Origin: the human T2T-CHM13v2.0 reference genome, Homo sapiens
NCBI RefSeq assembly: GCF_009914755.1
Contig: NC_060947.1
Reading direction: 5' to 3' (one strand)
DNA: 64,000 bases
The number at the start of each line of letters is the position of its first letter. The first letter of the stretch is position 1. The position numbers and the translations under genes are program-made. A model generated the notes under the pieces. The model was given only the letters and a program-made list of their open reading frames with translations. It was not told where the DNA came from and searched no databases. Below are positions 35,880 through 51,290 of the stretch, in pieces.

Positions 35880-38793
35880 ATTTTAAAAAATATTTGTTTT
35901 TATTTTTGTGGGTATGTAGTTGCTATATATATATATATTTATGGGTTTCATGAGACGTTTTGATACAGGAATATAATATAAAATACGCAAATTATCAAGA
36001 ATTGAGTATCCATTCCCTAAAGCATTTTTGCTTTGAGGTACAAACAATCCAATTACACTCTTTAAGTAACTTAAAATGTACAATTCAGTTATTATTGACT
36101 ATAGTCACCTGGTTGTGCTATCAAATAGTAGGTTTTACTCATTCTTGCTACTTTCTGTACCTGTTAACCATCCCCATTTCCTCCCAGCCCCCCACTACCT
36201 TTCTCAGGCTCTAATAACCATCCTTCTACTCTCTATTTCCATGAGTTTAATTGCTTTGATTTTTAGATCTCACAAAAAAGTGAGAATATGTGATGTTTGT
36301 CCTTCTATGCCTGGCTTATTTCACTTAACATAATGATCTCCAGTTCCATGCATGTTGTTGCAAACGATTGAATTTCATTTTTAATAGCTGAATAGTACTC
36401 CATCATGTATATGTACCACAAATTGTTTATCCATTCATCTGTTGGTAGATGCTCAGGTTGCTTCCAAATCTTGCCTATTGTGAACAGAGCTGCAACAAAC
36501 ATAGAAATGTAGATACCTCTTCAATATACCGATTTCCATTCTTTTGGGTGTATACCCAGCAGTGGGATACCTGGGTCATATGGTAGCTCCATTTTTAGTT
36601 TTTTGAGGAATCTCCAAACTGTTCTCCAAAGAGGGTGTACTTATTTACATTCCCACCAAGAGCGTACAAGGGTTCCCTTTTCTCCACATCCTCGCCAGCA
36701 TTTCTTATTGCCCGTCTTTTAAATAAAAGTTATTTTAACTGAGGTGAGATGATATCTCCTTGTAGTTTTGATTTGCTTTTCTCTGATGATCAATGATGTT
36801 CAACACCTTTTCATATGCCTGTTTGCCATTTGTATGTCTTCTTTTGAGAAATGTCTATTCAAATCTTTTACCCATGTTTTGATTGGATTGTTAGATTTTT
36901 TTTCTACAGAGTTGTTTGAGCTGCTTATATATTCTGGCTATTAATCCCTTGTCACATGGGTAGTTTGCAAATATTTTGTCCCATTCTGTGAGTTGTCTGT
37001 TCACTTTGTGGATTGTATCCTTTGCCATGCAGCTTTTGAACTTGATGCGATCTCATTTGTCCATTTTAGCTTTGGTTGACTTAGCTTTTGTGACTTGTGC
37101 GGTATTACTCAAGAAATTTTTGCCCAGACCAATGTCCTGGAGATTTTCCCCAATGTTTTCTTGTTGGAGCTTCATAGTTTGAGGTCTTGATTTAAGTCTT
37201 TAATCCATTTTTATTTGATTTTTATATATGGTGGGAGAGAGAGGGGTCTAGTTTCATTCTTTTGCATATGCATATCCAGTTCTCCCAGCACCATTTATTG
37301 AAGAGACTGTCTTTTCCTCAGTGTATGCTCTCGGCACCTTTGTTGAAAATGAGTTCATTGTAGGTGCATGGATTTGTTTCTGTGTTCTCTGTTCTGTTCC
37401 ATTGGTCCATGTGTCTGTTTCTATTCAATGTGTCTGTTTTTATATCAGCACTATGCTGTTTTGGTTACTGTAACTCTGTAGCATAATTTGAAGTCAGGTA
37501 ATGTGATTCCTCCAGTTTTGTTCTTTTTGCATAGAATAGCTTTGGCTATTCTGGGTCTTTTGTGATTCCATATAAATTTTAGGATTGTTTCTATTTCTGT
37601 GAAGAATGTCATGGTTATTTTGATATGGATTGCACTGAATCTGTAGATTGCTTTAGATATTATGGACATTTTAACAATATTGATTCTTACAACCCATGAA
37701 TATGAAATATTTTCCCATTTTTGGTGTCCTCTTCAATTACTTTCATCAATGCTTTCTAGTTTTCATTATAGAGATCTTTTACTTTTTTGGTTAAGTTAAT
37801 TTCTAGCTATTTAATTTTATGGGTGGCTATTGTAAATGAGATTACTTTTTAATTTCTTTTTCACATTGATCATGTTGGCGTACAGAAATGCTACTGAATT
37901 TGCATGTTGATTTTGTATCCTGCAACATTACTGAAATTGTTTATCAGTATTAATAGTTTTCTTGTGTAGTCTTAAGGTTTTTCCAAATATGAAATCATAT
38001 CATCTACAAAAAAGGATAATTTGACTTCTTTCCAATTTGGATGCCTTTTATATGTTTCTCTCATCTGCTCTAGCTAGTACTTCTAGTACTATTTTGAATA
38101 AGAGTGGTGACAGTGCACATCGTTGAGGTATTCCAGATCTTAGAGAAAAGGCTTTCAGGTTTTCGCCATTCAGGATGATACAAGCTGTGGGTCTGTCATA
38201 TATTGTTTTTATTATGTTGATGCATGTTTCTTCCATCCCCGGTATTTTGAGGGTTTTTATCATGAAGGGATGTCGAATTTTATCAAGTCCTTTTTCAGCA
38301 TCAATGAAAATGAGACTCTTGTTCTCTTCCCTTACTTTCTCTAAAACAAATGGAGGTTGTGTCTCTGTTCTGAGCCACTTACAGCTGGGGGTGAAGTAAG
38401 TAAGACCAGCATCCCTGTGGTCACCACCGCTATGACTGCACTGGGTCTGACCTAAAGCCAGCACAGCACTGGGTCTCACCCAAAGCCTGCTGTAACCACT
38501 CCCTGGTTGCTGCCTATGTTCGCTCTCCCTCCCCGAGCACCCAAGAGAGACTCTCCACAACACGCCGCTGCTGCCACAAGGAAGCGGGGTGGGCATTGTG
38601 ATTCAGGACAATTTTTTCTATCTCCTCACTGTCTCTTTCAGTGATATGAAATTATAACCAGGTACTATGAACGCTCTGATTTTTTGGTTTTTCTGAAGAT
38701 GTATTTTTCTGTGTAGATAATTGTTAAATTGGTGCCCTTGTTGGGGCGATGATCAGTGAAGCATTCTATTCCACCATCTTGCTCCACCTCCCA
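35880..38793 (-). mobile_element. L1MA2-like element with both termini but large internal deletions (L1-A)
   Basis: 3'UTR and ORF2 3' part at 35880-38310, fused to 5'UTR pieces ending ctattccaccatcttgctcc; TSD ctgcct(g/a)gtcaa at 35867-35878 and 38795-38806. Confidence 0.9.
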
Positions 38794-38826
38794 TCTGCCT
38801 AGTCAATCTTATAAAAGTTTTAAGTC

Positions 38827-48300: not shown

Positions 48301-51290
48301 TGAAATCAGAGATTAAAATGAAGACAGCACAACTGATACTGCAGAAATTCAAATTAGCATTACCAACTACTATGAGCAACTATATGCCAATAAATAGGGA
48401 AATTAGAGAAATTGACAAATTCCTAGATACATACAACCTACCAAGATTGAACCAGGAAGACATGCAAAACCTGAACAGACCAATAAGAATTAATGAGATC
48501 AAAGCCATAGTAAAAAGTCTCTCAGTAAAGAAAAGTCCAGGACACTCTGGCTTCACTGCTGAATTCCACTAAACATTTAAAGAAGAACTAATACCAATCA
48601 TACTCAAACTATTCTCAAAGAGAGAAGGGAGGAGTACTTCTAAATTCATTCTATAAGGCCAGTATTACCCTGGTACCAAAACCAGACAAAGACACATCAA
48701 AAGAGAAAACTGCATGCCAATATCTCTGATGAATATTGATGTAAAAATCCTCAACAAAATACTCCCAAAACAATTTCAACAATACATTACAAAGATCATT
48801 CATTGTGACCAAGTTGGATTTATCCCTGGGAACCAAGGATGGTTCAACATATGCAAGTCAATCAATGTGATGCATCATATTAAGAGAATGAAGGATGAAA
48901 ACCATATGATCATTTCAATTGATGCTGAAAAAGGATTTGATGAAATTCTACATCCTTTCACGATAAAAACCCCTCAAAAACTGGTAATAGAAGAGAAACA
49001 TACATCAACATAATAAAAGCCATATATGACCTACTCACAGCTAGTATACTGAATGGAGAAAAACTGAAAGCTTTTTCTCTGAGATCTGCAACATGAAAAG
49101 GATGCTCACTTATACCACTGTTGTTCAACATAGACAACAGAAGGAAATAGGGCACCCAAATTGAAAACAAAGAGGTCAAATTATCTTTGTTTGCAAATAT
49201 GATCTTATATTTGAAAAAAACTAAAAATGCCATTAAAAACTATTGGAACCCATAAACAAACTCAGTAAAGCTGCAGAATACAAACTCAATACAAAAATCA
49301 GTAGCATCTCTATATGCTAACAGTAAACAATCTGAAAAAATATCAGAAAAGTAACCCCATTTACAATAACCACAGAAAATTAAATATCTAGGAATTAACT
49401 AAACCAAAGAAGTGAAAGATGTCTATAATAAAAACTATAAAACACTGATGAAAGTAATTGAAAAGACACCAAAAAATAGAAAAATATTCCATGTTCATGA
49501 ATTGGAAGAATCAATATTGTTAAAAATGTTCATACTACCCAAAGCGATGTACAGATTTAATGCAATTTCTATAAAAATACCAATGACATTCTTCACAGAA
49601 ATAGAAAAAGATAATCCTAAAATTTATATGGATCAACAAAAGACCAAAAATAGCCAAAGTTATTCTAAGCAAAAATAAATCTGGAGGAATCCCAATACCT
49701 GAGTTCAAATTATACTACAGAGCTATAGTAACCAAAACAGCATGATAATGGCATAAAAACAGACATATAGACAATATGAACAGAATAGAGAACACAGAAA
49801 TAAATCCACACACCTACAGCGAACTTATTTTCAACAAAGGTGCCAAGAACATATACTGCAGAAAAGACAGTCTCTTCAATAAATGGTGCTGGGAGAACTG
49901 GATATGCACATGCAGAAGAATGAAACTAAACTCCTCTCTCTCTCACAATATACAAAAATCAAATAAAAATGGATTAAAGGCTTAAATCAAGACCTCAAAC
50001 TATGAAGCTCCAACAAGAAAACATTGGGGAAAATCTCCAGGACATTGGTCTGGGCAAAAATTTCTTGAGTAATACCGCACAAGTCACAAAAGCTAAGTCA
50101 ACCAAAGCTAAAATGGACAAATGAGATCGCATCAAGTTCAAAAGCTGCATGGCAAAGGATACAATCCACAAAGTGAACAGACAACTCACAGAATGGGACA
50201 AAATATTTGCAAACTACCCATGTGACAAGGGATTAACAGCCAGAATACATAAGCAGCTCAAACAACTCTGTAGAAAAAAAATCTAACAATCCAATCAAAA
50301 CATGGGTAAAAGATTTGAATAGACATTTCTCAAAAGAAGACATACAAATGGCAAACAGGCATATGAAAAGGTGTTGAACATCATTGATCATCAGAGAAAA
50401 GCAAATCAAAACTACAAGGAGATATCATCTCACCTCAGTTAAAATAACTTTTATTTAAAAGACGGGCAATAAGAAATGCTGGCGAGGATGTGGAGAAAAG
50501 GGAACCCTTGTACGCTCTTGGTGGGAATGTAAATAAGTACACCCTCTTTGGAGAACAGTTTGGAGATTCCTCAAAAAACTAAAAATGGAGCTACCATGTG
50601 ACCCAGGTATCCCACTGCTGGGTATACACCCAAAAGAATGGAAATCAGTATATTGAAGAGGTATCTACGTTTCTATGTTTGTTGCAGCTCTGTTCACAAT
50701 AGGCAAGATTTGGAAGCAACCTGAGCAACTACCAACAGATGAATGGATAAAGAATTTGTGGTACATATACACAATGGTACATATACACTATTCAGCCATG
50801 AAAAAATGAGATCCTGTCATTTGCAACAACATGGATGTTACTGGAGATTATTATATCAAGTGAAATAAGCCAGGCACAGAAAATAAACATTGCATGTTCT
50901 CACTTATTTGTGGGATCCAAAAATCAAAACAATTGAACTCATGGAGATAGAGGGTAGAAGGATGGTTAACAGAGGCTGGGAGGGGTAGGGGAAGAGTACA
51001 GTGGAAGTGGGGATGGTGAATGGGTACCAAGAAAATAGAAAGCATGAAAAAAAAACTAGTATTTGATAGCACAACCAGGTGACTATAGTCAATAATAATT
51101 TAATTTTCCATTTAAAAATAAGAGTATAATTGGATTGTTTGTAACACTAAGGATAAATGCTTGAGGGGATGGATACCCCATTCTCCATGATGTGATTATT
51201 ACACATTGCATGCCTGTATCAAAACATCTCATATGCTCCATAAATATATAGACCTACTATGTACCCACAAAAATTAAAAATAATTTTTTA
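42355..51290 (+). mobile_element. Full-length decayed L1MA1/2-like element (L1-B): 5'UTR, ORF1 ~45700-46640, ORF2 ~47140-50900, 3'UTR
   Basis: ORF1 remnants (IITENFPNL), endonuclease motifs (IIAGDFNT, FSDHNGIKLEIN), RT motifs ([26 protein letters not shown]), all with stops/frameshifts; TSD agaatgatttt(tg/ct)aaaccc at 42335-42353 and 51292-51310. Confidence 0.93.
42381..43684 (+). mobile_element. 5'-truncated SVA (SVA_A-like): VNTR ~42381-43150, SINE-R, poly(A)
   Basis: About 19-20 GC-rich ~40-bp units (cctctgcccggccgccccgtctgggaggtgaggagcg); HERV-K-derived SINE-R; TSD aagatggca(a/g)aataga at 42365-42380 and 43685-43700. Confidence 0.95.

What the first reader, a model, noticed from the sequence alone, without database searches (positions are those of the whole stretch)
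36406..50771. ~790-bp near-identical inverted tract in two old L1s 13 kb apart: gene conversion and a candidate inversion locus
Seen: 36406-37196 is the reverse complement of 49981-50771 with about 7 mismatches by eye (~99%). The ORF track shows it as an identical 68-aa peptide on opposite strands. Both copies share private derived changes (e.g. the ttagctttggttgacttagcttttgtgac duplication). Just outside the tract the copies differ at roughly one base in ten, as expected of independent old L1MA insertions. Each L1 still has its own matched TSD pair, so this haplotype is in the ancestral orientation. Known: inverted repeats homogenised by conversion are the usual substrate of recurrent NAHR inversions. 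Inference: recent ectopic conversion, possibly with the ~13-kb interval (including the SVA and twin-primed L1) flipping in some haplotypes or species.
Basis: partly seen in the sequence, partly recalled or inferred. Interest (0 to 1): 0.8.

Follow-up and report, generated by a model that had tools for sequence, protein, structure and literature searches.

The report
Gene-conversion patch between two inverted L1s
Two ancient, independently inserted L1 repeats lying head-to-head 13 kb apart on human Xp22.11 share a 791-bp stretch that one copied from the other, a clean but ordinary case of ectopic gene conversion, and the published lists I could check show no flipping of the DNA between them.

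Summary
Window 36406-37196 is the reverse complement of 49981-50771, with 7 mismatches in 791 bases and no indels. The rest of the same 2.4-kb L1 pair differs at about one column in four, or one aligned base in five counting substitutions only.

The pair is unique in the T2T genome. The next best of 40 scored copies is 86% identical.

Compared with 28 other L1 copies, both arms carry the same private changes: 66 of 781 sites in the tract against 7 of 1168 in the flanks, plus a shared 9-bp insertion. Each L1 has its own target-site duplications.

This is non-allelic gene conversion between independent, inverted L1 insertions. Identity falls off in steps: 0.3% difference in the centre, 2.9% in the left part, and 6.7% in a right shoulder. 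That fits repeated events or patchy repair.

"Recent" means millions of years. The donor is unresolved.

The inversion idea is not supported. This haplotype is in the ancestral orientation. A T2T-based inversion callset of 44 samples, a human-chimpanzee retrotransposon-inversion list and an inverse-PCR inversion set have no entry here. Rare or ape-specific inversions remain untested.

This is a new member of a known kind, of modest interest.

The parts
36406..37196 (-). Arm A of the conversion tract (CHM13 chrX:23100406-23101196). It is a decayed C-terminal ORF2 region of L1-A, whose sense strand is the window's minus strand.
   Evidence: 7 mismatches in 791 bases and no indel against arm B. 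66/781 sites are shared-derived relative to 28 other L1 copies. A shared 9-bp insertion lies at 37085-37093, with shared deletions at 37030 and 37188.
49981..50771 (+). Arm B of the conversion tract (CHM13 chrX:23113981-23114771), in L1-B, whose sense strand is the window's plus strand.
   Evidence: It is the only other match of 99% or more in the genome among 40 scored of 13734 candidates; the next best is 86%.
37197..37316 (-). Right shoulder of arm A (partner 49861-49980), with intermediate identity (8/120 differences). It is either an older conversion or patchily repaired heteroduplex.
   Evidence: Four shared-derived substitutions (37212, 37241, 37271, 37282) and a shared 2-bp insertion (37236-37237) are interleaved with private sites. 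Over the wider shoulder 37197-37408, shared-derived sites are 7/210 against 7/1168 in the flanks (Fisher p=0.002).
35879..38794 (-). L1-A, an internally deleted old L1. The 3' 2.46 kb is at 35882-38345, joined to 5'-end pieces at 38312-38785.
   Evidence: It is homologous to L1-B over 35882-38345 and to 5' parts of L1-B and of another L1. Its TSDs are CTGCCTGGTCAA at 35867-35878 and CTGCCTAGTCAA at 38795-38806.
42353..51291 (+). L1-B, a long, near full-length old L1 interrupted by an SVA-like insertion.
   Evidence: TSDs are AGAATGATTTTTGAAAC at 42335-42351 and AGAATGATTTTCTAAAC at 51292-51308. Pfam finds an endonuclease match at 47313-47915 and an RVT_1 match at 48657-49010, both on the + strand.
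37197..49980 (.). The 12784-bp interval between the arms. It is the segment that would flip if a crossover occurred in the tract, and it consists of repeats.
   Evidence: Length. The contents come from the self-comparison: the 5' part of L1-A, an Alu at 38829-39133, an L1 with a strand switch at 39671-42019, an SVA-like element at 42381-43686, and the 5' 7.6 kb of L1-B.
42381..43686 (+). SVA-like insertion (VNTR-type tandem repeats plus a poly-A tail) inside the first 28 bases of L1-B.
   Evidence: Tandem self-matches span 42381-43150 and the poly-A is at 43666-43687. Its own TSD is aagatggca[a/g]aatag at 42366 and 43687. The name SVA is recalled, not tested.

Best explanation
Two L1 retrotransposons inserted independently, tens of millions of years ago, in opposite orientation about 13 kb apart. 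Later, a break in one copy was repaired by homologous recombination using the other copy on the same chromosome or sister chromatid as template. The repair was non-allelic gene conversion without crossover. It overwrote about 0.8 kb of the C-terminal ORF2 region of one copy with the other copy's sequence, including the donor's private substitutions and small indels.

Identity is highest in the centre (0.3% difference over 617 bp). It is lower in the left 174 bp (2.9%) and in a 120-bp right shoulder (6.7%). So either the exchange happened more than once, with each event raising the local identity that favours the next, or a single heteroduplex was repaired patchily at its ends.

Shown: the tract, its sharp left edge, the shared private changes, the independent insertions, and the ancestral orientation of this haplotype.

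Inferred: the repair mechanism, the number of events, and the timing, which is millions of years for the whole tract.

Not resolved: which copy was the donor.

The tract has no evident function. It lies in decayed L1 sequence in a gene desert at least 76 kb downstream of PTCHD1.
For: (1) Identity steps from 65-86% per 100 columns in the flanks to 97-100% inside the tract, with no indel in 791 bases. The log10 P is -85.9, and identical runs of 349 and 256 bases compare with a shuffled maximum of 78.

(2) Polarisation against 28 other L1 copies gives shared-derived sites at 66/781 in the tract, against 4/491 in the left flank and 3/677 in the right flank (Fisher p=7e-20). Private sites in the tract number only 2 for A and 5 for B, while the flanks carry 6.9-12.8% private sites per copy. 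The tract is therefore diverged from the family but identical between the two copies, which excludes simple conservation.

(3) Shared private indels (the 9-bp insertion at 37085-37093, and deletions at 37030 and 37188) lie inside the tract.

(4) Genome-wide, the two arms are each other's only match of 99% or more; the next of 40 scored candidates out of 13734 is 86%. For the adjoining 3' flanks, the partner copy does not appear among the rows listed after scoring 40 of 6837 and 40 of 7622 candidates, where the listed hits reach 79-86%.

(5) Each L1 has its own TSD pair, so the arms are independent insertions and not a duplication.

(6) It is the only long near-identical repeat in the window: 564 shared 40-mers on one diagonal, against 30 for the next.

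(7) Non-allelic conversion between dispersed repeats is established. It is reported to be more frequent for copies within 10 kb and on sex chromosomes (passages of the review PMC6598467, citing Aleshin and Zhi 2010).
Against: No outgroup or second haplotype was available. The pre-conversion state, the donor and the date are therefore not observed directly.

The donor test was inconclusive. Identity to the panel in the right flank correlates with tract identity for A (Spearman 0.52, p=0.007) but not for B (0.12). The left flank gives no signal for either copy, and the two copies' panel affinities overlap.

No GC-biased signature was detected. The weak-to-strong versus strong-to-weak ratio is 21:21 in the tract and 64:108 in the flanks (p=0.16).

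No PRDM9-type 13-mer lies in either arm (0 of 4 window matches).

An unexplained excess of A<->T and G<->C transversions occurs among the shared-derived sites: 24/66 against 42/214 (p=0.008).

The multi-event reading rests on small counts, 5/174 against 2/617 (p=0.007), and the split was chosen after seeing the data.
Confidence: 0.9

Rival explanations
1. The converted inverted tract is an active NAHR substrate, and the 12.8-kb interval is inverted in some human haplotypes or ape species, as a polymorphic or recurrent inversion.
For: The geometry is right: inverted arms with perfect runs of 349 and 256 bases. By recall these exceed the roughly 130-230 bp of uninterrupted homology reported as the minimum for efficient mammalian recombination (recalled, not checked here).

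Inverted L1 pairs do flank balanced inversions. Passages of preprint 10.1101/2021.12.20.472354 report 22 such cases in 41 genomes. L1-mediated inversions between human and chimpanzee are documented (PMC2603318).

Conversion and crossover are alternative outcomes of the same recombination intermediate (established knowledge).
Against: This haplotype has matched TSD pairs around each L1, so it is in the ancestral orientation.

In the T2T-CHM13 inversion callset of 44 samples, consecutive chrX rows jump from 14.29 Mb to 26.37 Mb. No number beginning 2308-2313 occurs in any of its 3 supplementary files. The same table does list chrX calls of 1.3-12 kb, so the size is within the detectable range (PMC10150506).

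None of the 5 chrX loci in the human-chimpanzee list is here, and none of the chrX inversions in PMC3961182 Table 1 is here.

Known inversion-flanking L1 pairs are much more alike overall: 21/22 exceed 90% identity, with a median of 97.2%. This pair is 84.6% identical over 2.4 kb, and the roughly 20% divergent flanks should hinder crossover resolution (inference).
Confidence: 0.07
2. A single conversion event, with patchy mismatch repair at both ends of a long heteroduplex, accounts for the whole graded pattern. On this view there were no repeated events.
For: In the left 174 bp and the right shoulder, converted sites are interleaved with unconverted ones. About 20% flank divergence would leave many mismatches in a heteroduplex, and discontinuous tracts are known outcomes of mismatch repair (established knowledge, recalled).
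Against: 2 of the 7 differences inside the tract are at CpG sites, which is what later decay would produce. The gradient also fits nested events of different age. The data cannot separate the two readings.
Confidence: 0.35
3. The tract is an assembly or polishing artefact, with reads from one arm used to correct the other.
For: None was found. It is considered only because near-identical repeats are a classic source of collapse.
Against: The arms still differ at 7 sites. Both lie in unique, collinear L1 contexts and are only 0.8 kb long, far shorter than the long reads used for this assembly (recalled). The shoulder of intermediate identity is not what a copy-over artefact gives.
Confidence: 0.02
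4. Two successive inversions, with crossovers at different points in the L1 pair (a flip followed by a flip back), produced the tract.
For: It would leave the present ancestral orientation and matched TSDs.
Against: A double crossover swaps the segment reciprocally between the copies and does not make them identical. The 66 shared-derived sites, against 7 private ones, require non-reciprocal copying.
Confidence: 0.01

Closest known systems
Non-allelic (ectopic, interlocus) gene conversion between dispersed transposable elements. It is best documented for Alu and LTR elements and is reviewed in PMC6598467 (passages seen).
   Same: It shows non-reciprocal replacement of part of one repeat copy by a nearby paralogous copy, a mosaic of shared private variants, short range (13 kb), and a sex-chromosome location.
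   Different: Here the partners are old L1 copies only about 80% alike outside the tract, in inverted orientation. The tract is long (0.8 kb, with a graded shoulder). No pre-conversion orthologue was examined, whereas the classic Alu cases rest on cross-species comparison.
Retrotransposon recombination-mediated inversions and L1-pair-flanked balanced inversions (PMC2603318, passages and supplement; preprint 10.1101/2021.12.20.472354, passages).
   Same: Inverted L1 copies flank a kilobase-scale interval, and the same recombination machinery is involved.
   Different: No inverted allele is known here. The published L1 pairs are young and more than 90% identical overall (21/22), whereas this pair is 84.6% identical with a 99% island.
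Conversion-maintained identity in palindrome arms and in NAHR hotspots of low-copy repeats (Fawcett and Innan 2013, as cited in PMC6598467; the paper itself was not seen).
   Same: A local island of very high identity between inverted paralogous sequences, kept or renewed by arm-to-arm conversion.
   Different: The arms did not arise by duplication, since each has separate TSDs. The island is under 1 kb. The locus is not in the palindrome table of the ape sex-chromosome paper: no entry beginning 2309-2312 for human X in PMC11168930 file 4.

Membership tests
Non-allelic gene conversion tract | Abrupt rise in identity between paralogous copies, relative to their flanks, beyond chance | tested here: met
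   7/791 differences in the tract against 372/1484 columns outside; log10 P = -85.9.
Non-allelic gene conversion tract | Collinear, homologous replacement with no junction, insertion or rearrangement at the edges | tested here: met
   No indel in 791 bases. The alignment to the L1 partner continues on both sides.
Non-allelic gene conversion tract | Variants private to the pair (derived relative to the family) are concentrated in the tract | tested here: met
   66/781 shared-derived sites in the tract against 7/1168 in the flanks, plus shared indels inside the tract.
Non-allelic gene conversion tract | The copies are independent loci, not a recent duplication | tested here: met
   Each L1 has its own TSD pair. 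The flanks are not each other's nearest relatives in the genome.
Non-allelic gene conversion tract | An orthologue or haplotype that retains the pre-conversion sequence of the acceptor | not testable with these tools
   Only the one human T2T genome is held; there are no ape or other human assemblies.
NAHR-mediated polymorphic or recurrent inversion | Inverted repeats of high identity at both breakpoints | tested here: met
   791 bp at 99.1%, with perfect runs of 349 and 256 bases. Overall pair identity is only 84.6%.
NAHR-mediated polymorphic or recurrent inversion | Both orientations observed among haplotypes or species | tested here: not met
   There is no entry at chrX:23.10-23.115 Mb in the 44-sample T2T callset, in the human-chimpanzee list or in PMC3961182 Table 1. 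Coverage was limited: rare alleles and other apes were not examined, and the supplements of the 729-inversion study were not seen.
NAHR-mediated polymorphic or recurrent inversion | Chimeric repeats with mismatched TSDs in the inverted allele | tested here: not met
   In this haplotype both L1s carry matched TSD pairs.
Segmental duplication or palindrome | Arms of at least 1 kb and at least 90% identity that arose by duplication | tested here: not met
   An ungapped stretch of 1030 nt at 96% reaches the numeric threshold. However, the arms are separate L1 insertions with their own TSDs and flanks about 80% identical.
LINE-1 retrotransposon (identity of the arms) | ORF2 endonuclease and reverse-transcriptase domains in order, an A-rich 3' end, and TSDs | tested here: met
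   L1-B has Exo_endo_phos_2 at 47313-47915 (E=1e-7) and RVT_1 at 48657-49010 (E=5e-13), with TSDs. L1-A is assigned by homology to L1-B. The subfamily was not determined.

The most novel reading that the evidence does not exclude
The two L1s form a long-lived, self-reinforcing exchange site: an incipient palindrome born from independent insertions rather than from a duplication. Conversions have recurred over more than 10 million years, each renewing a homology island that is now long enough (349 and 256 perfect bases) for occasional crossovers. On this reading the 12.8-kb interval toggles at low frequency in humans or is inverted in some ape lineage.
Probability: 0.1. Interest if true: 0.55.

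Novelty: new member of a known kind. Interest (0 to 1): 0.3.

Why it matters
It is a very clean, statistically unambiguous example of ectopic conversion between old, roughly 20% divergent L1 copies. It shows that dispersed ancient repeats can regain near-identity locally.

Such islands mislead repeat-age estimates and mapping, and they create potential NAHR substrates where repeat annotation would predict none.

The locus itself lies in repeat-only DNA at least 76 kb from the nearest gene (PTCHD1). Even an inversion would probably have no phenotypic effect.

Its value is as a test case for measuring how often conversion between old repeats seeds structural instability, once pangenome and ape T2T assemblies are compared.

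Tried and rejected
Donor direction was not resolved. I compared region-wise identity of A and B to the 28-copy panel and searched the genome with each 3' flank. The results gave only a weak hint for A, and the relatives of the two flanks overlap.

GC-biased conversion was not significant.

No PRDM9-type motif lies in either arm.

A megablast self-comparison for other high-identity islands printed nothing useful, because the alignments extend into the divergent flanks. I replaced it with a 40-mer diagonal count.

Pfam on short ORF pieces inside and next to the tract gave no hits: 0 of 2 and 0 for 3 of 5 pieces.

Some literature look-ups led nowhere. The Cell paper on 729 inversions is not held, and the supplements of its preprint are closed. 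The supplement search of PMC12350169 hit only read statistics in a truncated file. The supplement search of PMC11168930 gave no relevant row. A search for Xp22.11, inversion and PTCHD1 found no paper on an inversion here. The PTCHD1 downstream enhancer of PMC10663455 lies about 9 kb from the stop codon in mouse, which is outside this interval.

The store of earlier findings was not open.

Conservation, a double crossover and an assembly artefact were each considered and rejected; the reasons are given under the rival explanations.

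
Full report
**Observation**

A repeat scan of 34000-53000 finds one outstanding inverted pair: 36400-37429 against 49748-50777, 1030 nt at 96%. BLAST shows this pair sits inside a 2.49-kb inverted homology, 35882-38345 against 51292-48880, that is only 84.6% identical overall.

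I made a global alignment and scored it in 100-column windows. Flank windows within the homologous span are 65-86% identical, apart from two gap-rich windows at about 50% near 38006-38151. Identity jumps to 97-100% between 36412 and 37211, then declines through 94, 93, 90 and 80%.

The mismatch list gives exactly 7 substitutions and no indel in 36406-37196 against 49981-50771. The left edge is sharp: a 6-bp indel and a cluster of mismatches lie immediately outside 36406. The right edge is graded, with 8/120 differences in 37197-37316 and 17/92 in 37317-37408.

Outside the tract and shoulder the pair differs in 372/1484 columns. Counting substitutions only, that is 276/1388, or 19.9%. The binomial log10 P of 7 or fewer differences in 791 columns is -85.9. 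The longest identical runs are 349 bases (36580-36928) and 256 bases (36941-37196), against a maximum of 78 in 2000 shuffles.

The quoted 29-mer occurs once in each arm and nowhere else in the window.

**What the arms are**

L1-B runs on the + strand from 42353 to 51291. Pfam finds an endonuclease match at 47313-47915 and an RVT_1 match at 48657-49010. It is flanked by AGAATGATTTTTGAAAC at 42335 and AGAATGATTTTCTAAAC at 51292.

An SVA-like element (VNTR-type repeats and a poly-A tail; the name is recalled) sits in the first 28 bases of L1-B, with its own duplication.

L1-A lies on the - strand from 35879 to 38794. It is flanked by CTGCCTGGTCAA at 35867 and CTGCCTAGTCAA at 38795. It is internally deleted: 38312-38785 matches 5' parts of L1-B and of another L1.

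From the positions of the endonuclease and RT matches, I infer that the tract lies in the decayed C-terminal third of ORF2.

The 3' ends of both L1s point outwards. The 12784-bp interval between the arms holds the 5' parts of both L1s, an Alu, a third L1 with a strand switch, and the SVA-like element.

**Why it is gene conversion**

A search of the whole T2T genome with arm A returns only the two arms at 99% or more. The next best of 40 scored candidates (of 13734) is 86%.

I aligned A, B and the 28 other copies fetched by that search, then classed each site against the commonest state among the 28.

| Region | Shared-derived sites | A-private | B-private |
|---|---|---|---|
| Left flank | 4/491 | 12.8% | 6.9% |
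| Tract | 66/781 | 2 sites | 5 sites |
| Shoulder (37197-37408) | 7/210 | 10 sites | 14 sites |
| Right flank | 3/677 | 8.1% | 9.2% |

Fisher's test gives p=7e-20 for tract against flanks and p=0.002 for shoulder against flanks.

Shared private indels lie in the tract: a 9-bp insertion at 37085-37093 and deletions at 37030 and 37188. The shoulder carries a shared 2-bp insertion at 37236-37237. Two further shared deletions appear in the flanks, at 36377 and 38066, the second in a poorly aligned stretch.

So the tract is as diverged from the family as any old copy, yet the same in both arms. One copy's private history was written onto the other.

The flanks are not special to each other. Genome searches with the adjoining 3' flank of A and of B each scored 40 candidates (of 6837 and 7622). 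The other copies they list are 79-83% identical for A and 81-86% for B, and the partner flank is not among the listed rows.

Within the window, this is the only long near-identical repeat: 564 shared 40-mers on one diagonal, against 30 for the next.

**Structure and age of the tract**

The differences are not even: 5/174 in 36406-36579 against 2/617 in 36580-37196 (p=0.007; the split was chosen after seeing the data), and 8/120 in the shoulder. In the shoulder, shared-derived sites alternate with A-private and B-private sites.

Two readings fit. One is nested conversions of different age. The other is a single heteroduplex repaired patchily at its ends. I cannot separate them without outgroups.

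Using recalled mutation rates of 0.45-1.0e-9 per site per year, the whole tract dates to about 4-10 My, with Poisson limits of 1.8-20 My. The central 617 bp dates to about 1.6-3.6 My, with limits of 0.2-13 My. Two of the 7 differences are at CpG sites. 'Recent' is therefore relative, and the tract is probably fixed in humans (inference).

**Direction, bias and motif**

The donor could not be determined. The right-flank identity of A to the panel correlates with tract identity (Spearman 0.52, p=0.007) and that of B does not (0.12). The left flanks give nothing, and the two copies share relatives.

There is no significant GC bias: weak-to-strong against strong-to-weak is 21:21 in the tract and 64:108 in the flanks (p=0.16). 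No PRDM9-type 13-mer lies in the arms.

A<->T and G<->C transversions are unexpectedly frequent among the shared-derived sites, 24/66 against 42/214 (p=0.008). I have no explanation for this.

**The inversion idea**

Geometry and the perfect runs make a crossover conceivable. Inverted L1 pairs do flank balanced inversions: 22 cases in 41 genomes, of which 21/22 pairs are more than 90% identical with a median of 97.2% (passages of preprint 10.1101/2021.12.20.472354). L1-mediated inversions between human and chimpanzee are also documented (PMC2603318).

Three published lists give no support at this locus:
- The T2T-CHM13-based callset of 44 samples (PMC10150506, Table S1) has no number beginning 2308-2313 in its 3 supplementary files. 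Its chrX rows, in order, go from 14,291,972 to 26,369,337. The same table lists other chrX calls of 1.3-12 kb. I saw rows 335-366.
- The human-chimpanzee list has 5 chrX loci, none near 23 Mb.
- None of the chrX inversions in Table 1 of PMC3961182 is here.

The supplements of the 729-inversion study could not be seen (the preprint's supplements are closed). Searches of two other large supplements were uninformative. Rare human alleles and ape-specific inversions remain untested.

**Comparison with what is known**

Non-allelic conversion between dispersed repeats is established for Alu and LTR elements. It is reported to be more frequent for copies within 10 kb and on sex chromosomes (review PMC6598467, passages). 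This locus is an L1 example with unusually divergent partners and a clean signature.

It is not a segmental duplication or a palindrome by origin, because each arm has its own TSDs. It is not a known inversion.

**Verdict**

The conversion reading is supported with confidence 0.9. The inversion reading is unsupported, at about 0.07. I class this as a new member of a known kind, with interest 0.3.

Noticed in passing
window 38312-38794: L1-A is internally deleted. Its 3' 2.46 kb is joined directly to about 0.47 kb of 5'-end pieces. These match L1-B 45261-45460 and 43685-43875, and another L1 at 59690-59950, all in reverse orientation.
   Followed up: partly
window 42366-43701: An SVA-like element (VNTR-type tandem repeats at 42381-43150 and a poly-A at 43666-43687) is inserted 28 bases into L1-B, with its own duplication aagatggca[a/g]aatag. 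The family name is recalled and was not tested.
   Followed up: partly
window 39671-42019: A third L1 is about 70% identical to A and B and 86% identical to the L1 at 4268-5719. It has a strand switch at 41572/41576, as twin priming would give.
   Followed up: partly
window 51604-51910 and 52492-52800: An inverted pair of Alu-like repeats, about 85% complementary and about 580 bases apart, lies just beyond the 3' end of L1-B (pairs I4 and I6).
   Followed up: no
window 1990-2161 and 3993-4163: A 172-bp inverted repeat at 94% identity. It is the only other pair reported at 93% or more by the window self-comparison.
   Followed up: no
window 36406-37196: Among the 66 shared-derived substitutions, A<->T and G<->C transversions are over-represented: 24/66 against 42/214 in flank private changes (p=0.008), with T>A alone counted 11 times. 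This is unexplained.
   Followed up: partly
window 35882-36405 versus 50772-51292: The 3' flank of L1-A carries nearly twice as many private changes as that of L1-B (12.8% against 6.9% of sites). The right flanks are similar (8.1% against 9.2%).
   Followed up: no
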